This document shows, piece by piece, positions 5,787 through 55,738 of a DNA stretch of 64,000 nt (position 1 is the first letter of the stretch; every line of letters starts with the position of its first letter). The notes beneath the pieces are model-generated. The model was not told the origin of the DNA. It ran no database searches and was given only the letters and a program-made list of their open reading frames with translations. The stretch is from Escherichia phage ECML-123-2: the sequence record OL631480. One strand, given 5' to 3'. A program made the position numbers and the translations under genes.

Positions 5787-5839
5787 AATTTCCTCATTAA
5801 TTGAACATTGGAGCGATGCGTTTCAGAAGAGTATCAGCG

Positions 5840-5849
5840 NNNNNNNNNN
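5840..5849. other. assembly gap (run of 10 N)
   Basis: literal nnnnnnnnnn in the sequence. Confidence 0.97.
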
Positions 5850-6358
5850 TGATAAAAATCTTTATGTGTAAAGAATGGACTGATATAAGCAGTGTTTTCT
5901 CCTGGGTCAACAGGTCTAATTTGCTTATTATCACCTATTCCAATTATAGTACACCACGGCGGGATAGTTGAAAGCAGAATTTTAAATAGCTTTCTATCAT
6001 ACATTGACACTTCATCGCAGATTAATACTCTGCATTTAGCTAAATCTGGTACTTCCTTCTGCTCAAAGAGGACATTTTCTTCATATGTTACCGGGTTAAT
6101 TTTGAGAATACTGTGAATAGTACTCGCTTCTTTCCCTGATAGTTTTGAAAGAATCTTTTTAGCTGCATGAGTAGGAGCTGCTAAAATAATGCCAGTTTCG
6201 CCCGTAGATATTAAGGCTTCAATGATGAACTTAGTAAGAGTAGTCTTACCAGTACCAGCAGGTCCATTAATAGTTACATGATGTTTCTTTTCTTTAATAG
6301 CCCTCATAACGATGTTAAAGGCATTTTTCTGGCCTTCAGTCAAATCATCAAATGTCAT
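5850..6358 (-). CDS. dda: Dda DNA helicase, N-terminal fragment cut off by the assembly gap
   Basis: MTFDDLTEGQKNAFNIVM...GPAGTGKTT (Walker A) matches recalled T4 Dda N-terminus; reading frame runs into the N-run after ...THKDFY. Confidence 0.85.
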
Positions 6359-7537: not shown

Positions 7538-8140
7538 TTATAGATTAAATCCTTCAAAATCAAGAGTATAGATAGTGTATGTTGAATACTTTTTGTACTC
7601 ATATCTATCTGCAATTCTAAATACACTTCCAGCTGGTATCATTACTTCTTGTTCATCTGAAACTAATTCCATATTACGATAACGATGGCTATCTGGAAAC
7701 TTAAAGTTTGGATTGTATTCTTTACAGCGTAGAGCTTTTATAGCATACTCCTGGAAATTGAATACCATAGGAGCTTTGAATTCAAAAATAACTTGTGTGT
7801 TATACTCTAAACCAGAAGCAAAATGCAGAGCTATATTTTTATCATATGAAGCTGATACTACTTTATCAAATGTAATAATATCAATTCCTTGATTTAATAC
7901 TTGCTTAGTCTCAGCTGGAACACCTCTCCAAAGAGGTTTATCGTTTGGAACCAAACGAGATTTGATTATTTCATTTAACCAAGTATGGTCATCTGGTTTG
8001 TTGGTAATACAATGAATTAAAAGTTCAATTTCAGATAAATTAAATCCTTCAGAAAGTAATTCTTCACGAATAGAAGCACGCACCGATGCATCCATTGATT
8101 TTATTTTAAAATCTTTTAGTTGCATTACTGAGTATTTCAT
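7538..8140 (-). CDS. modA: ADP-ribosyltransferase ModA
   Basis: 200-aa ORF at the T4 modA position with R...S...ExE-like motifs (LWRGVP, SASYD, EQEVMIPAG). Confidence 0.8.
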   Translation of the reverse strand: MKYSVMQLKDFKIKSMDASVRASIREELLSEGFNLSEIELLIHCITNKPDDHTWLNEIIKSRLVPNDKPLWRGVPAETKQVLNQGIDIITFDKVVSASYDKNIALHFASGLEYNTQVIFEFKAPMVFNFQEYAIKALRCKEYNPNFKFPDSHRYRNMELVSDEQEVMIPAGSVFRIADRYEYKKYSTYTIYTLDFEGFNL

Positions 8141-8757
8141 TCAACTACCTCAATATCATAAACTTTAAATGTTCCAAATGAATCGTGTAATTTTTCTTTT
8201 GAAATAGAAGTTATTCTATACTTTCCAATTGGAATCATCCATTCTTGTTCACGCACAATCATCATTAAGTTATCAGTACGCTCTGAATCTAATCCATCAG
8301 TATCTTCATACGTGTACTTAAACTCAGTATTAGGAGAAGAAAGTATAATATCGCTGATATGGTCAGAATAATTAAAAGCTTTATCAGTTTTTAAGCGAAA
8401 TATTATTTCAGTGAAATACACATAAGAAAAACCACATGCTATGTGCAAACTAGTAGTAAATGAATCTACCCTGTTCGTTGAAAACACTTCTCCGACTTGT
8501 AAATCTTTAATGAGTTCTTTTGTCGATTTTGATATACCACGATATAGCTGATAAGGTGATTTAGTTAAATGCTTTTTAATGATTTTATTCAACTGCCTAT
8601 GAAGAGCTTCATTCTTTTTAGCTTCCATACATTGCCAAAGAATTGACTGCTCAAAGTCAGTAAATTTTTCACAGACTTTTTTATACATATCATATTGAAA
8701 ATCAACGCTTTCAGCTTTTATAGATAACTGTTCAACATCTGCAAGATTAATAATCAT
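8137..8757 (-). CDS. modB: ADP-ribosyltransferase ModB
   Basis: 206-aa paralog directly upstream of modA (LYRGIS, STNRVD, EQEWMIPIG). Confidence 0.8.
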   Translation of the reverse strand: MIINLADVEQLSIKAESVDFQYDMYKKVCEKFTDFEQSILWQCMEAKKNEALHRQLNKIIKKHLTKSPYQLYRGISKSTKELIKDLQVGEVFSTNRVDSFTTSLHIACGFSYVYFTEIIFRLKTDKAFNYSDHISDIILSSPNTEFKYTYEDTDGLDSERTDNLMMIVREQEWMIPIGKYRITSISKEKLHDSFGTFKVYDIEVVE

Positions 8758-14134: not shown

Positions 14135-14761
14135 TTAACCTCTATTCATAAAAGCATTAAAAATTTGGTCATCAATAGAAACATCTACTTTAGACTGTTT
14201 TTCTGATGGTAATTCATATCCACATATTACAATTTTGTGATCAATATCAAAATACACAGAAGCAATATGATTAATGATGTTTTCAGTAAAGTCTAAATCA
14301 ACATCAATATCTTTTTGACCACAGCCCAAAGGATAAATAATGCGAGTAATTCGATTATCTTTAACAAAGATTCCACCGACATACTCTGTGCTGCGTTTAA
14401 AGTCTACACGCCGACGAAATGAAAAATATTCAGGCTCTTTATGAGCTCGGCTCATAGGGCACAACGAATAACTAGAATAAGAGATGTCAAATCCTACGCC
14501 TTCAATATGAACTAAATTGTCATGATTAAACCAATTATAATCATATGCCAAGTCCATTAGATTGTCATATGTGAAAGGCACCGGATTAACATCATTGGTC
14601 ACAAGCATATAATTAGCAACTGCTATAATTTCATTATTTTTAACGAATACAAACCGTGATTGATGTGAATGACCTGGACCTGCGTTTTCACGATTAATGA
14701 TATAACACTGGGCACCTTTATATTTGTACGTGTCTTTACACTTGTGCATTTGATAAAGCAT
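14135..14761 (-). CDS. hypothetical protein at the 61.2 position (the T4 gene reported as anti-DarT factor AdfA, by position only)
   Basis: 208-aa ORF, second gene after 61 towards 41. Confidence 0.6.
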   Translation of the reverse strand: MLYQMHKCKDTYKYKGAQCYIINRENAGPGHSHQSRFVFVKNNEIIAVANYMLVTNDVNPVPFTYDNLMDLAYDYNWFNHDNLVHIEGVGFDISYSSYSLCPMSRAHKEPEYFSFRRRVDFKRSTEYVGGIFVKDNRITRIIYPLGCGQKDIDVDLDFTENIINHIASVYFDIDHKIVICGYELPSEKQSKVDVSIDDQIFNAFMNRG

Positions 14762-27725: not shown

Positions 27726-27742
27726 GTTTTTCCTCCATAGAG

Positions 27743-27768
27743 ATTATACTCTAATAAATTAAAGCATA
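27743..27768 (-). promoter_or_regulatory. MotA-dependent middle promoter candidate
   Basis: minus aTGCTTTAa, 11 bp, TATAAT, upstream of 45.2. Confidence 0.45.
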
Positions 27769-27780
27769 ATCTCTTATAAA

Positions 27781-29463
27781 TTAAACCATTACAGTAAATC
27801 GACCAACTTTCTTCATTTGAAGATGCTGACCGTATGCTTGCGGGTCATGGTCTCTATGTGAAATAACAAAAACGTTAGTATTTTTTAAACTATCTAAAAT
27901 AGTTGAAATAGCTTTTACACCTTCAACGTCGGTCGCTGAATCAAAAACTTCGTCAAGAATTAACGTGTTTATTTTAACACCTGAAACTTTTTCAGCAATA
28001 TCACGCCAAGTAAATAAAAGAGCAATATCAATTCGTGCTTTTTCACCTTGACTGAATGAAGCATAACTAAAATCTTCGCGACCACGGGATTTAATTGTCT
28101 CATTAAATTCTTCATCTAATGTAAACACATAATCCGCTTCCATTATTTTAAGATAATGGTTAATCTGCTTATTAAATAATGGAATGTACTTTTTAATAAT
28201 AGCACCTTTAATACCAGAATCTTTGAGCATATCAGTCAAAATTCCTCGGTGGTATTTTTCCATTACTAAATTAGTTTTTGTCTTAACAATTTTATCAAGT
28301 TCTTCTTGAAGCAGTGCTATTTCATCAGCATGGTCAATAAACTCAGAAGATGCTTTTTCTATAGCCGCTTTAACCTTTTTAGCTTTATCTACTGCTGCGA
28401 TCAGAGATTGCTTTTTATTGCGAATATCATTTGCCAACGACTGTTGGGTTTTAATATTATCTCGGTATTCATCAACAAGAACTTTTAAATTATCACGATG
28501 TGTTGAAAGCTGTTCAAACGAATGCGTACATTCAGAAACTTTATCTTTAATTTTAGAAACAACTTTATCACCGGAACTCAATTGTGACAAACAGGTTGGA
28601 CATAATCCACCTTCGTGATACATATTAATGACTTTATTATACGAGTCAATTTTTGATTTAATTAAAACTGCTTCTTGACCGATTTTATTAAATGCATCAG
28701 TCGGGTCTTCATCTAAAACAATATTAACTAATCTTTCATTAGCTTCTTCTATTTCCGATTTTAGCGTTCTAGCTTCTTTTGCCAAATCATCATACATATT
28801 TTGCAGACGAGTAAGATTGTCACCCGTTAATTTTTTCTGGCGTTCAACGTTATCATTATATATTTTAATTTGTTGGATAATACTATCTTTTTTAACGTCA
28901 AGCACTTGGTTTTGTGAATTTAATTCACGTATTAGTGCTTTATTAAGCTTATCCATTTCAGCTAATGTTCCTACCTCAAGTAGGTCTTCCACAAGCTTTC
29001 TTCGCGCAGGGGTCGACAAACCCATGAAAGGGGTATACCCTGCTGTACCAAGGACAACAATCTGCTTGAAACTGGCATATGACATTCCGATAAGCTGTTC
29101 AAATTCTGCTTGGAAATCTTTACTGCTGGCAGATTCATTAAGACGTGTACCGTTAACGGTGATTTCAAAAACGTTCGGCTTTTGTCCTCTTTTGATATAG
29201 TACTTTTTCTCATCATATTCCATCCACAGTTCAACTAAAAGTTCTTTCTTATTTGTGCTGTTTATTAATTGGCCTTTCTTTACATCACGAAATGGCTTGC
29301 CAAAAAGCCCAAATGTGATGGCTTCTAACATAGTAGACTTACCACCGCCATTTCGTCCAGTAATAAGAGTTTTTTGAACCTTATCTAATTGAATGTCAAT
29401 AGGATTTCCACCTACTGACATTATATTTTGATACCTAACTCGGTTTAGTTTAAAATTCTTCAC
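27781..29463 (-). CDS. 46: recombination nuclease subunit gp46 (Rad50/SbcC-like ATPase)
   Basis: 560 aa, Walker A GRNGGGKST, long coiled coil, Walker B LILDEVFD. Confidence 0.93.
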   Translation of the reverse strand: MKNFKLNRVRYQNIMSVGGNPIDIQLDKVQKTLITGRNGGGKSTMLEAITFGLFGKPFRDVKKGQLINSTNKKELLVELWMEYDEKKYYIKRGQKPNVFEITVNGTRLNESASSKDFQAEFEQLIGMSYASFKQIVVLGTAGYTPFMGLSTPARRKLVEDLLEVGTLAEMDKLNKALIRELNSQNQVLDVKKDSIIQQIKIYNDNVERQKKLTGDNLTRLQNMYDDLAKEARTLKSEIEEANERLVNIVLDEDPTDAFNKIGQEAVLIKSKIDSYNKVINMYHEGGLCPTCLSQLSSGDKVVSKIKDKVSECTHSFEQLSTHRDNLKVLVDEYRDNIKTQQSLANDIRNKKQSLIAAVDKAKKVKAAIEKASSEFIDHADEIALLQEELDKIVKTKTNLVMEKYHRGILTDMLKDSGIKGAIIKKYIPLFNKQINHYLKIMEADYVFTLDEEFNETIKSRGREDFSYASFSQGEKARIDIALLFTWRDIAEKVSGVKINTLILDEVFDSATDVEGVKAISTILDSLKNTNVFVISHRDHDPQAYGQHLQMKKVGRFTVMV

Positions 29464-32329: not shown

Positions 32330-32354
32330 ATTTTACCAAAAATTTATAAAGCAA
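32330..32354 (-). promoter_or_regulatory. MotA-dependent middle promoter candidate for alpha-gt
   Basis: minus atTGCTTTA, 11 bp, TAAAAT. Confidence 0.4.
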
Positions 32355-38931: not shown

Positions 38932-39401
38932 TTTAAACTCTTTCTAAGCTGCTTCTTAAATGAAGCTATTAACTGTGTTTTGGTGTCAGATTCATTATAT
39001 TCAAATCCTCTTTGAAGCATCTCGGCCATCATTTCCTCTTTTCCTAAACGAGAAAATTCCTTTGATTTATCTCCAACAAAGTTAGGGTGAATATTATTTT
39101 GGGTGTAATCGGATTTTAAATAAGTAAGTAAATTTTCTAACCATTCAAGATAATCAACACCTTGTCCCTTTAAGCCAGAACGATTAAATTTATGCTTCAT
39201 TTGACCTTCTGTAGCATTGCAGAGATTACAAAGCAATCCACGTATCTTTCCTGCTTTTGGTCCATTTAATTCATGGTCATGGTCGAGGTGATTAGCTTGA
39301 ACATCAGGATTTAGTTCTCGTTGGCAAATTAAGCATTTACCGTTTTGTGCATTATAAAATTTTTGTTTTTCTTCTTTGTATAATTTGCCAGTCAATAACA
39401 T
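38928..39401 (-). CDS. 49: endonuclease VII gp49 (Holliday junction resolvase)
   Basis: 157 aa with CLICQRE...HLDHDHE...CNLCN zinc/HNH-like motif; same size as T4 gp49. Confidence 0.93.
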   Translation of the reverse strand: MLLTGKLYKEEKQKFYNAQNGKCLICQRELNPDVQANHLDHDHELNGPKAGKIRGLLCNLCNATEGQMKHKFNRSGLKGQGVDYLEWLENLLTYLKSDYTQNNIHPNFVGDKSKEFSRLGKEEMMAEMLQRGFEYNESDTKTQLIASFKKQLRKSLK

Positions 39402-53347: not shown

Positions 53348-53513
53348 ATATTAATTTCCAGGAGTTTTAAAATAATTCGCTTTTGCTTAAATATTTCCAT
53401 AGTTAAATGACCAGTATCTTTTTGACCGATTCCAATGGCAAAACCTTTATTGACAGCGAGTTCAATTAAATTATCAAGCTCACGTAACACTTCATACTGT
53501 AACTCAAAACTAT

Positions 53514-53726
53514 TCATTTCGGTTTACCTTCTTTAACGAAATCTGGATAAGGATAAAATCCCGAATAAAATCCTTCACCTTTATGATTGATGCATCCTTT
53601 ATTAGAACAATAGCACCAATAATCGAAATCACAAGCCATTTCATCGTTGCATAAAGCAAAAACAACTGGCCATTTACACTTTTCACAATGGGCATTTTTA
53701 AGAATACTAGTTTGGCTCATAACCAT
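53514..53726 (-). CDS. small Cys-rich protein (putative zinc-binding)
   Basis: 70 aa with HCEKCKW...CNDEMACDFDYWCYCSNKGCINH. Confidence 0.5.
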   Translation of the reverse strand: MVMSQTSILKNAHCEKCKWPVVFALCNDEMACDFDYWCYCSNKGCINHKGEGFYSGFYPYPDFVKEGKPK

Positions 53727-53944
53727 GTAACCTTTAAGCAGTATTCTTCTACATGCTGTTTACGACCTTTCTTATCAATAAAGGTATATTCAACGAATGT
53801 TCCAATGTAGTCTTTATCTACATCATGCGGACTATTAATTGGACATTTAGTACGGCAAATGCGTTCCCATTGACGAATAATTACTGCCTTATTCTTTGGG
53901 TCATATGGATGTGGATAATGTATATTCATAATAACGGTTCCCAA
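53717..53944 (-). CDS. hypothetical protein
   Basis: 75-aa ORF. Confidence 0.5.
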   Translation of the reverse strand: MGTVIMNIHYPHPYDPKNKAVIIRQWERICRTKCPINSPHDVDKDYIGTFVEYTFIDKKGRKQHVEEYCLKVTWL

Positions 53945-54393
53945 TCAACAATCACAATTTCTAATTTAGAGGAATATGTATCTAAAATCCCCTCAATAAT
54001 ATCCCAGTTCCCTTTACCTATGCCTGCACCAATCCTAGGCATATAGATTGTAGGTTTAATCAGTTTATTTTCACCAAACTCATTTAATTCTAACATACAA
54101 TTCATTAAAGCGGAATACTCAAAATTTGGCCCTGGTTGAAATTGAGTATAAAGGTTGAAGCAATACGCTTTATGAGTCCTAAAGTATTTTTCATAGACTG
54201 AGTAAGAACCGAGTTTAGTTACATCACCCCATTCAGTCTGTAATTTATCAGCTTCCAAAATTTTAGGGAAAGCTTTGGTTAATTGACCCGCTACGCCTGA
54301 ACCCATAGTATGAAAACAATTGCATCCATGCGCAATATTTTTACCTTCAGCGAAAAGGGCGACAATATCGCCCTTGATATATTTTACAATCAT
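53926..54393 (-). CDS. macro-domain protein (ADP-ribose binding or hydrolysing), tk.4 position
   Basis: 155 aa; AHGCNCFHTMGSGVAGQL and IGAGIGKGNW resemble macro-domain N-x6-GG[VLI] and G-x-G motifs. Confidence 0.55.
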   Translation of the reverse strand: MIVKYIKGDIVALFAEGKNIAHGCNCFHTMGSGVAGQLTKAFPKILEADKLQTEWGDVTKLGSYSVYEKYFRTHKAYCFNLYTQFQPGPNFEYSALMNCMLELNEFGENKLIKPTIYMPRIGAGIGKGNWDIIEGILDTYSSKLEIVIVDWEPLL

Positions 54394-54731
54394 CTAGTAC
54401 TCAATCCTCGATTATAAGAATCTACCAAACGGTCAACCATTGAATGACAAGCGGCTTTATCTTTCTCCTCCGCAACTGAACATTCTAAGGTATTCCACTT
54501 TTTAGCATATCGTTTTAATAATGTATCGTTTTTGTATCTGCTTGATTTATCTCTTTCTCCGTCTTTATATGCATATATTAATTTCTGCGCAAATTCAGCT
54601 TGGCATGCTTTATTTTTCCCACAATAATCCGCGGCAGTACGGTTTACATACTCTCTAATTTCAGTATATGATGTATCTGCTAACGCAGAAAATGAAATTA
54701 ATCCTATACATAAAACCAAAATTTTAGTCAT
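54390..54731 (-). CDS. secreted hypothetical protein (vs position)
   Basis: 113 aa with MTKILVLCIGLISFSALA signal peptide. Confidence 0.5.
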   Translation of the reverse strand: MTKILVLCIGLISFSALADTSYTEIREYVNRTAADYCGKNKACQAEFAQKLIYAYKDGERDKSSRYKNDTLLKRYAKKWNTLECSVAEEKDKAACHSMVDRLVDSYNRGLSTR

Positions 54732-55269
54732 TTACTATTTCCAAAAGTTTATTATTTTTAAGGTAATTAGCCTTTTCTAGGACTTCAGAAGCATATTTAG
54801 AACCAGCTTTAACATTCCATCCCGAATTATAAGAGGATATTGCTTTTCTTATATCGCCCTTATGTATATTTAACCAATAAGAAAGTTCAATGTACGCCCA
54901 GGAAGCTGAATTGGACCGTTTATTCAACATTCTTTTTATTTCAGCATCGGTCATATTATAACCAAGTTCCTTGACTCTCGCTCGCATAGTAGGCAAATAA
55001 TTTTGGAACATTCCATAAGCGTGATGCTTTGGTTTAGATTTTAAATTAACTCCGCCAGAGCTTTCTTGCCATAAAATGGCTGCCATTATATGGCCTAATC
55101 CGCTCTTGTGGATGTTTTTGTGTGTTTTATATTTTCCATCCTTAGAAAATTGTTCCCCGAATTGATACGCGTAACGCATGTTATCGAGTTGGACATTACT
55201 GAAAGTATGCTCGGAGCTATGTGCCATCATTGAAATGGCCAATAGACCAGCGAGTAGTGCTTTTCTCAT
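54724..55269 (-). CDS. secreted lytic-transglycosylase-like protein (SLT domain), vs.1 position
   Basis: 181 aa with signal peptide; ILWQESSGG ... GMFQ resembles the SLT catalytic region. Confidence 0.55.
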   Translation of the reverse strand: MRKALLAGLLAISMMAHSSEHTFSNVQLDNMRYAYQFGEQFSKDGKYKTHKNIHKSGLGHIMAAILWQESSGGVNLKSKPKHHAYGMFQNYLPTMRARVKELGYNMTDAEIKRMLNKRSNSASWAYIELSYWLNIHKGDIRKAISSYNSGWNVKAGSKYASEVLEKANYLKNNKLLEIVND

Positions 55270-55276
55270 GCTTACC

Positions 55277-55738
55277 TCATTGAGTTTTAATTACTGCTTT
55301 AGAAGCCTTTCCTGGTAAACGACGACTATTGATAATTGCCATCCTGCATTGAAGCGACGGGTCTTTGAACTTCGCATTAGGTTTACAAACTGTAAATCCA
55401 AGCCAAAGATTTCCATCTGTGATTTCTAAACGTCCAGGACGGTATTCAACCCCATCAATAAAATCCTCATCAATGTCAGGACGCGGAGGCATACTCAGGA
55501 ATTCATTAACTTCTAAAACATGGTCTTTTATTTTGTGGAATAATTCAAAAACATATGTCTCATCAATCTCCCGTTGAATTGCACGATCAAGAAGATGCTG
55601 AGAATATTTTAGATGAAACGATGAGACCCCTGCTGCTTTTGATGCCTCACGAATCTCATTGTTAATTTGACGAAACTCCGACTCAAAGTGACGACGAAGC
55701 TTATTTCGACGGATAAAAACTTCTGTGTTGATAGTCAT
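55277..55738 (-). CDS. regB: RegB site-specific endoribonuclease
   Basis: 153-aa basic ORF at the T4 regB position and size. Confidence 0.7.
   Translation of the reverse strand: MTINTEVFIRRNKLRRHFESEFRQINNEIREASKAAGVSSFHLKYSQHLLDRAIQREIDETYVFELFHKIKDHVLEVNEFLSMPPRPDIDEDFIDGVEYRPGRLEITDGNLWLGFTVCKPNAKFKDPSLQCRMAIINSRRLPGKASKAVIKTQ

What the first reader, a model, noticed from the sequence alone, without database searches (positions are those of the whole stretch)
53926..54393. Macro-domain protein encoded in a genome that also carries ADP-ribosyltransferases
The 155-aa ORF has motifs (HGCNCFHTMGSGVAGQL, IGAGIGKGNW) consistent with a macro domain, which binds or hydrolyses ADP-ribose. The same window encodes ModA and ModB ADP-ribosyltransferases. 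A phage macro domain could reverse host defence ADP-ribosylation (for example DarT) or tune the phage's own modifications.
Basis: partly seen in the sequence, partly recalled or inferred. Interest (0 to 1): 0.55.

Follow-up and report, generated by a model that had tools for sequence, protein, structure and literature searches.

The report
T4 tk.4/AdfM anti-DarT2 macrodomain gene

Summary
The 155-aa ORF at 53926-54393 (minus strand) is real. Its protein is 100% identical to phage T4 Tk.4 (NP_049723.1); the window comes from a T4-like Tequatrovirus. It passes the Pfam Macro threshold. An AlphaFold model (pLDDT 95) has a macro fold whose nearest solved structures are BT1257/SCO6735, Poa1p, DarG and TARG1. 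The ADP-ribose-binding loops are invariant across 77 homologues. ModA and ModB are in the window but about 45 kb away.

A November 2025 preprint (HIDEN-SEQ) found tk.4 as the single T4 gene required on a DarTG2 host. A clean knockout sensitised T4, and the authors renamed the gene adfM. No enzymology of the T4 protein was found in the searched library.

One detail I add: Tk.4 lacks the catalytic lysine of DarG/TARG1. It has an invariant Gln84 there, as in Streptomyces SCO6735, a lysine-free macrodomain shown to cleave thymidine-linked ADP-ribose from ssDNA, where Q85A is inactive. PhiKZ gp104, also named "AdfM" and biochemically proven, is a lysine-type DarG-like protein barely similar to Tk.4. 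Two macrodomain lineages therefore share one name. Interest is low.

The parts
53926..54393 (-). tk.4 / adfM coding sequence: a 155-aa single-domain macrodomain protein
54405..54409 (-). Shine-Dalgarno-like GAGGA, 11 nt upstream of the ATG
   Evidence: Read from the sequence. An RBS is annotated at the corresponding place in phage U115.
54390..54393 (-). ATGA overlap: the vs stop codon (TGA) overlaps the tk.4 start codon (ATG), suggesting translational coupling within one transcript
   Evidence: ORF coordinates and sequence. The coupling itself is an inference.
53926..53929 (-). ATGA overlap: the tk.4 stop codon overlaps the tk.3 start codon (ATG at 53929)
   Evidence: Sequence. The U115 and T4 annotations place the tk.3 CDS start here.
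54289..54321 (-). Codons N25-A35 (NCFHTMGSGVA): the conserved Asn plus the GxG-[VIL]-A loop of the ADP-ribose pocket
   Evidence: N25, G33 and A35 are invariant in 77 homologues. N25 aligns with PhiKZ AdfM N23, whose Ala mutant has reduced activity.
54142..54144 (-). Codon Q84 (CAA): occupies the column of the catalytic Lys of TARG1 (K84) and DarG (K80); invariant Gln in the Tk.4 family
   Evidence: Alignment A2. 77/77 Gln. SCO6735 Gln85 is at the equivalent position and Q85A/E is inactive (PMC9411070).
54004..54039 (-). Codons P119-W130 (PRIGAGIGKGNW): the second, diphosphate-binding glycine-rich loop
   Evidence: P119, I121, G122 and G124 are invariant; G128 and W130 are at least 90% conserved. 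The loop aligns with the PRIGCGL / PPLGAGNGG loops of TARG1 and DarG.

Best explanation
This is tk.4 (adfM) of a T4-like phage. It is an orphan, antitoxin-like macrodomain enzyme made from the leftward prereplicative gene block (regB-vs.1-vs-tk.4-tk.3-tk.2-tk.1-tk). When the host DarT2 toxin ADP-ribosylates thymidines in single-stranded phage DNA, Tk.4 binds the ADP-ribose in its macro pocket (N25, G31-A35 loop, P119-G128 loop). It then hydrolyses the ribose-thymine N-glycosidic bond, releasing ADP-ribose and restoring replicable DNA. Catalysis is probably lysine-independent: an invariant Gln84 replaces the DarG/TARG1 lysine and would position the substrate and a water molecule, as proposed for SCO6735. 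Shown here: gene identity, macro fold, intact pocket, and the Gln-for-Lys substitution. Shown in the literature: T4 lacking tk.4 becomes sensitive to DarTG2; Gln-type (SCO6735) and Lys-type (DarG, PhiKZ AdfM) macrodomains cleave T-ADPr from ssDNA. Inferred: that Tk.4 itself is the hydrolase, that Gln84 is essential, and when the gene is expressed.
Against: No enzymology, catalytic mutant or complementation of the T4 protein was found; the preprint infers hydrolysis from structural similarity, and the preprint is not peer-reviewed. Tk.4 lacks the DarG/TARG1 catalytic Lys and the TARG1 Asp. It also lacks the extended 'mobile loop' and the Val25/Lys34 equivalents highlighted for SCO6735. The SCO6735 analogy is therefore partial. 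Promoter-like sites in the region are no more frequent than in shuffled sequence, so expression timing is inferred from gene order only.
Confidence: 0.82

Rival explanations
1. Tk.4 protects against DarTG2 mainly by binding and inhibiting the DarT2 toxin, or by shielding modified DNA, rather than by catalytic removal of ADP-ribose.
For: Catalytically dead SCO6735 (Q85A), DarG (K80A) and TARG1 (K84A) all inhibit DarT in vitro, and SCO6735 inhibits it most strongly (PMC9411070). The other T-even factor, AdfA, works by binding DarT1. Tk.4 lacks the canonical catalytic Lys.
Against: Tk.4 has no DarT-binding C-terminal domain: it is 155 aa and matches only positions 2-146 of the 338-position DarG model. 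The whole ADP-ribose pocket and Q84 are invariant across distant phages, which is what selection on catalysis would produce. Gln-type SCO6735 is a faster T-ADPr hydrolase than DarG.
Confidence: 0.08
2. Tk.4 is an ADP-ribose-1''-phosphate phosphatase, or another small-molecule ADP-ribose-derivative hydrolase. This is the historical 'A1pp phosphatase' annotation. Such an enzyme would process by-products of RNA repair or NAD-derived immune signals.
Against: It does not explain the specific DarTG2 phenotype of the knockout. The annotation was transferred from motif similarity only. T4-type RNA repair (Pnk/Rnl) does not generate Appr>p (own knowledge). It could be a side activity.
Confidence: 0.05
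3. Tk.4 is an eraser for the phage's own ADP-ribosylation (Alt, ModA, ModB, including ModB RNAylation), tuning or recycling those marks.
For: ModA and ModB are encoded in the same genome. SCO6735 and TARG1 also act on protein-linked ADPr. An Arg-specific macrodomain, MavL, exists (cited).
Against: There is no linkage: the genes are about 45 kb apart. Alt, ModA and ModB modify arginine (own knowledge), and no ALC1-like macrodomain has been shown to cleave Arg-ADPr. The SCO6735 paper describes tk.4-like residues only for Glu/Asp- and thymine-linked substrates. tk.4 is dispensable on plain K-12 and scored only with DarTG2. Macro genes occur in many phages (2750 records; 41% of myoviruses), which argues against a role tied to these particular ARTs; ART co-occurrence was not checked here.
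Confidence: 0.04

Closest known systems
Phage T4 Tk.4 = AdfM (anti-DarT factor Macrodomain), NP_049723.1; bioRxiv 10.1101/2025.11.20.689424
   Same: Identical protein sequence, the same vs-tk.4-tk.3 gene order, and the same orientation.
   Different: Nothing at the protein level. There are 6 synonymous nucleotide differences. The window is a T4 relative (100% to phage U115 over 1.9 kb), not the T4 reference.
Streptomyces coelicolor SCO6735 / Bacteroides BT1257 (Gln-type ALC1-like macrodomains; PDB 5E3B, 2FG1/2AFC)
   Different: Identity is only about 27-29%. Tk.4 lacks the 5-residue-longer mobile loop with Lys89/Lys93. It has Gly23 and Ser32 where SCO6735 has Val25 and Lys34; this residue mapping was made by hand through the BT1257 sequence. 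Tk.4 is a phage protein, SCO6735 a bacterial housekeeping or stress protein.
DarG2 antitoxin macrodomain (T. aquaticus, M. tuberculosis; PDB 5M31, 5M3E, 5M3I)
   Different: Tk.4 has Gln84 instead of Lys80. It has no C-terminal DarT-binding domain and no adjacent darT. It scores 30 bits against the 250-bit cutoff of the NCBIfam DarG equivalog.
PhiKZ gp104 'AdfM' (Cell Rep 2026, PMC13309987)
   Same: A phage-encoded stand-alone macrodomain that counters DarTG2. The conserved Asn (N23 in gp104, N25 in Tk.4) lies in the same motif.
   Different: gp104 belongs to a different lineage. It is DarG-like with the FPTK lysine motif (E 9e-25 to Mtb DarG). Its only BLASTP match to Tk.4 is 21 bits over 23 residues. 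Its activity is biochemically demonstrated, whereas Tk.4's is not. It is imported into the phage nucleus.
Human TARG1 / yeast Poa1p
   Same: Both are top Foldseek hits (7e-10 and 3.5e-9). The N-terminal motif IxH-x-CNC...G-x-G-[IV]-A is shared with Poa1p.
   Different: The TARG1 catalytic dyad, Lys84 and Asp125, is absent from Tk.4. Poa1p's characterised activity is as an Appr-1''-p phosphatase.

Membership tests
Macro domain (Pfam PF01661) | Profile HMM score above the curated gathering threshold | tested here: met
   27.7 bits against a cutoff of 22; residues 22-132 match profile positions 2-113 of 118.
Macro domain (Pfam PF01661) | Three-layer alpha/beta/alpha macro fold | tested here: met
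Macro domain (Pfam PF01661) | ADP-ribose pocket motifs: conserved Asn, the GxG-[VIL]-A loop, and the P-x-IGxG loop | tested here: met
   N25, G33, A35, P119, I121, G122 and G124 are invariant in 77 homologues.
ALC1-like class (TARG1/DarG/Poa1p/SCO6735) | Nearest structural neighbours belong to this class, separated from MacroD-type, viral and PARG-type macrodomains | tested here: met
DarG/TARG1 lysine-type hydrolases | Catalytic lysine (DarG K80, TARG1 K84) after the T of the beta-strand 'xxTK' | tested here: not met
   Tk.4 has Q84 in that column, and the position is Gln in 77/77 family members.
DarG/TARG1 lysine-type hydrolases | TARG1 Asp125, the dyad partner (TARG1 only) | tested here: not met
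   That column is Gly in Tk.4 (GAGIGKG against GCGLDRL).
SCO6735-type (Gln-type) T-ADPr hydrolases | Gln at the position of the DarG/TARG1 lysine, essential in SCO6735 | tested here: met
   Q84 is in the Lys column. SCO6735 Gln85 is stated to be equivalent to that Lys by structural alignment. The equivalence here is by transitivity, not by direct superposition.
SCO6735-type (Gln-type) T-ADPr hydrolases | Mobile loop five residues longer than in TARG1/DarG | tested here: not met
   Between Q84 and the conserved Tyr93, Tk.4 has 8 residues, as TARG1 and DarG do. BT1257 has about 14.
SCO6735-type (Gln-type) T-ADPr hydrolases | Hydrolysis of thymidine-linked ADP-ribose on ssDNA | not testable with these tools
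   Needs a biochemical assay. It is only inferred for Tk.4 in the preprint.
DarG antitoxin of a DarTG2 toxin-antitoxin system | Macrodomain fused to a C-terminal DarT-binding domain; full-length match to the equivalog model | tested here: not met
   The protein is 155 aa. The NCBIfam DarG score is 30.3 bits against a cutoff of 250, covering model positions 2-146 of 338. The PADLOC DarG model matches positions 2-145 of 329.
DarG antitoxin of a DarTG2 toxin-antitoxin system | Adjacent darT toxin gene | tested here: not met
   The neighbours are vs, vs.1 (SLT domain), regB, tk.3 (DUF7202), tk.2 (zinc-binding) and tk.
T4 AdfM (tk.4) | Orthology: sequence identity and synteny with T4 tk.4 | tested here: met
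   100% amino-acid identity and the same flanking genes.
T4 AdfM (tk.4) | Required for plaque formation on DarTG2-expressing E. coli | not testable with these tools
   Reported for T4 in bioRxiv 10.1101/2025.11.20.689424.
PhiKZ-type AdfM (gp104) | Close sequence relationship to gp104 / DarG2 macrodomains with the FPTK motif | tested here: not met
   BLASTP gives 21 bits over 23 residues. gp104 hits DarG at 9e-25, whereas Tk.4 hits DarG at 5e-4.
Poa1p-like Appr-1''-p phosphatase | Residues probed in Poa1p (H23, S30, F152) and phosphatase activity | tested here: inconclusive
   H22 and T29 align with Poa1p H23 and S30. The C-terminal part aligns poorly, and activity cannot be tested here.

The most novel reading that the evidence does not exclude
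T4-type AdfM is a separate, lysine-free (Gln84), short-loop lineage of ALC1-like macrodomains, recruited by phages independently of the DarG-like PhiKZ AdfM. Like its relatives SCO6735 and TARG1, it may have a broader substrate range: uracil-ADPr on RNA, Glu/Asp-linked protein ADPr, or other ART-based defences. If so, its role would extend beyond DarT2, possibly including editing of marks made during infection.
Probability: 0.2. Interest if true: 0.45.

Novelty: already known. Interest (0 to 1): 0.15.

Why it matters
The gene is a textbook example of a phage carrying an orphan 'antitoxin-like' eraser enzyme against a DNA-ADP-ribosylating defence. Together with AdfA (gp61.2, also in this window) and AdfN (gp30.3), it shows layered anti-DarT protection in T-even phages. 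Because this was published in 2025, the scan finding adds no new biology. The modest residual value is mechanistic. T4 AdfM is a Gln-type enzyme, unlike DarG and PhiKZ AdfM, so it is a compact model for lysine-independent cleavage of base-linked ADP-ribose. The shared name AdfM also hides two distinct lineages.

Tried and rejected
1. I considered whether the missing catalytic lysine makes Tk.4 an inactive binder. I rejected this as the main reading, because SCO6735 has Gln at the same position and is highly active, with Q85A dead.

2. I tried to obtain a direct residue-level alignment to SCO6735 (5E3B) from the PDB sequence search. The full-length hit ranks 7th and is not printed. A truncated query aligned only the C-terminal loop. 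I relied on transitivity through TARG1 and DarG instead.

3. Pairwise global alignment with BT1257 is ambiguous around Q84. Default gap penalties put Q84 opposite Asp; lenient penalties put N80/Q84 opposite N/Q.

4. The promoter and terminator scan of 52.4-58.2 kb found no enrichment over shuffled sequence (21 sites against 22.4 expected). A MotA-box search found no site near tk.4. No dedicated promoter can be assigned.

5. I checked whether 'bacterial' homologues might sit next to darT. The one I looked up (P0072, a 'Bacilli' MAG) lies in a T4-like phage context with no darT.

6. I searched the literature for biochemical work on T4 Tk.4. Only the HIDEN-SEQ preprint mentions it.

7. LeRoux 2022 (PMC9250638) is not held. 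The gp61.2 = AdfA link is taken from a review.

Full report
**Observation.** The ORF listing returns an ATG-initiated ORF of 155 aa at 53926..54393 on the minus strand. The gene has a GAGGA Shine-Dalgarno-like sequence 11 nt upstream of the ATG. It is joined to both neighbours by ATGA stop/start overlaps: 54390-54393 with vs, and 53926-53929 with tk.3 (sequence; annotations). It therefore sits in a tightly packed, co-oriented gene string.

**Identity of the gene.**
- Megablast of 53400-55300 finds 662 phage records. Nearly all carry Escherichia, Shigella, Enterobacteria or Yersinia phage names, and the listed best hits are T4-like; the best is phage U115 at 100%.
- tblastn shows the protein is 100% identical to T4 'ORF 60.5' (X04567).
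- Direct comparison with the T4 reference confirms identity to tk.4 (T4p110, NP_049723.1, annotated 'phosphatase; contains A1pp phosphatase motif'). The DNA differs at 6 positions and the protein at none.
- Neighbouring genes match T4: tk, tk.1-tk.3, vs, vs.1, regB.
- The window is a T4 relative, not T4 itself. ModB is 94.7% identical to T4's, and vs and tk.2 differ slightly in length.
- ModA (7538-8140) and ModB (8137-8757) are indeed in the window, about 45 kb from tk.4.

**Is it a macro domain?** Yes.
- Pfam Macro scores 27.7 bits against a gathering cutoff of 22.
- The PDB sequence search finds BT1257 (E 1.3e-9), Poa1p, SCO6735, DarG and TARG1.
- NCBIfam and PADLOC give weak, N-terminal-only matches to DarG models.
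- An AlphaFold2 model built on a 77-sequence alignment has pLDDT 95.3 and pTM 0.90.
- Foldseek's top hits are TARG1, Poa1p, BT1257 and DarG.
- The protein therefore belongs structurally to the ALC1-like class (TARG1/DarG/Poa1p/SCO6735).
- The ADP-ribose-binding elements (N25, G33, A35, P119, I121, G122, G124) are invariant across the 77 homologues.

**What is known about it.**
- The HIDEN-SEQ preprint (bioRxiv 10.1101/2025.11.20.689424, Nov 2025) screened a T4 transposon library on a DarTG2-expressing host. It found tk.4 as the single significant hit. A clean tk.4 knockout sensitised T4 to DarTG2.
- The authors noted structural similarity to M. tuberculosis DarG and renamed the gene adfM. Enzymatic removal of ADP-ribose from DNA is stated as likely, not shown.
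- This filled a gap left earlier: T4 lacking both adfA and adfN is still DarTG2-resistant (PMC11825919).
- Many GenBank records already label the gene 'macro domain protein'.

**Mechanistic detail added here.**
- In an alignment with TARG1, two DarG macrodomains and PhiKZ gp104, Tk.4 has Gln84 in the column of the catalytic lysine (TARG1 K84, DarG K80, gp104 'PTK'). It has Gly where TARG1 has Asp125. The TARG1 sequence used was verified against PDB 2LGR.
- Gln84 is invariant in all 77 family members, as are Y82 and, nearly, T83 and N80.
- This is not a sign of inactivity. S. coelicolor SCO6735 is 54% identical to BT1257, the best PDB hit of Tk.4. It has Gln85 at the position structurally equivalent to that lysine. 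It cleaves thymidine-linked ADP-ribose from ssDNA faster than DarG or TARG1, rescues E. coli from DarT, and is inactivated by Q85A/E. A water-mediated, lysine-independent mechanism was proposed for it (PMC9411070).
- Tk.4 is nevertheless not a plain SCO6735 orthologue. It lacks the five-residue-longer 'mobile loop' of SCO6735/BT1257; its loop has TARG1/DarG length. It has Gly23 and Ser32 where SCO6735 has Val25 and Lys34 (this mapping was made by hand through the BT1257 sequence).
- The Q84-to-Q85 equivalence is by transitivity. I could not obtain a direct superposition, and the pairwise sequence alignment with BT1257 is ambiguous in that loop.

**Two different proteins named 'AdfM'.**
- A 2026 Cell Reports paper independently named PhiKZ gp104 AdfM. 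It showed in vitro removal of DarT2-made ADP-ribose from DNA, reduced activity of N23A, and rescue from DarT2 toxicity (PMC13309987).
- gp104, translated from the paper's construct, is a DarG-like, lysine-type macrodomain: E 9e-25 to Mtb DarG, with the FPTK motif.
- It shares only a 23-residue, 21-bit BLASTP match with Tk.4 around the N...GxG motif, where N23 aligns with N25.
- Phages have therefore recruited at least two macrodomain lineages against DarT2.

**Most likely mechanism.** Tk.4 is made from the prereplicative leftward gene block. It binds ADP-ribosyl-thymidine in ssDNA through the conserved macro pocket and hydrolyses the N-glycosidic bond with Gln84-assisted water chemistry. This restores replicable DNA.
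- Shown here: identity, fold, intact pocket, and the Gln substitution.
- Shown in the literature: the genetic requirement against DarTG2, and the activity of Gln-type and Lys-type relatives.
- Inferred: Tk.4's own catalysis, the role of Gln84, and expression timing. The promoter scan is uninformative and no MotA-box site lies near the gene.

**Rival explanations.**
1. Protection by binding and inhibiting DarT2. Dead SCO6735, DarG and TARG1 mutants inhibit DarT in vitro. However, Tk.4 has no DarT-binding domain, and its catalytic pocket is invariant.
2. The old A1pp-phosphatase, small-molecule role. It is supported by Poa1p similarity, by the label of PHROG 335, and by an RNA-repair neighbourhood in one homologue. 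It does not explain the DarTG2 phenotype.
3. Erasure of the phage's own Alt/ModA/ModB marks. There is no linkage and no evidence, and Arg-ADPr is not a known substrate of this class. It is not excluded.

**Verdict.** The feature is the already described T4 tk.4/adfM. Novelty: already known. Interest is low at 0.15. The remaining open point is biochemical: direct proof and mechanism of a lysine-free, short-loop T-ADPr hydrolase, and its substrate range.

Noticed in passing
window 14138-14761 (-): A homologue of T4 gp61.2 (208 aa, 98% identical). gp61.2 is reported as the anti-DarT factor AdfA. The window therefore carries two of the three known T-even anti-DarT genes (AdfA and AdfM). adfN (30.3) is not expected in this window, judging from the T4 gene map (own knowledge; not checked).
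   Followed up: partly
window 5840-5849: A run of 10 N (masked or unknown bases) lies inside a helicase-like ORF (5834-6358, minus strand; the translation shows XXXX and a P-loop GPAGTGKT motif). The position upstream of srd/modA suggests dda.
   Followed up: no
window, whole (e.g. 27741-27766, 28289-28313, 32330-32353, 38994-39019, minus strand): MotA-box-like middle-promoter pattern TGCTTNA-N11-13-TANNNT: 16 matches against 4.8 expected from shuffles, with none of 100 shuffles reaching 16. Most are on the minus strand between 27 and 39 kb. None lies near tk.4.
   Followed up: no
L004 1927-2397 (NCBI GCA_051648945.1, labelled Bacilli bacterium MAG): The Tk.4 homologue P0072 sits in a clearly T4-like phage context: Rnl1 RNA ligase one gene upstream, a Dda-like helicase immediately downstream, then spanin, PNKP and dCMP deaminase. 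The 'bacterial' label is probably a phage contig binned into a MAG. DUF4326 and RNA-repair genes lie nearby.
   Followed up: partly
window 54247-54249 (codon D49 of tk.4): Asp49, in the helix 'EADK', is invariant in all 77 homologues. It has no counterpart among the catalytic residues discussed for TARG1, DarG or SCO6735, and its role is unexplained.
   Followed up: no
window 54355-54375: A perfect 8-bp GC-rich inverted repeat (AAGGGCGA-CAATA-TCGCCCTT) lies within codons 7-13 of tk.4. It was flagged as terminator-like on the plus strand. The count of such sites in the region is not above chance (4 against 3.7 expected).
   Followed up: no
window 7538-8757 versus 53926: The distance from modA to tk.4 is about 2.6 kb shorter than in the T4 reference (46.4 kb against 49.0 kb). 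vs is 113 aa here against 115 aa in T4. The window is a U115-like T4 relative with indels relative to T4 between these genes; which genes differ was not checked.
   Followed up: no
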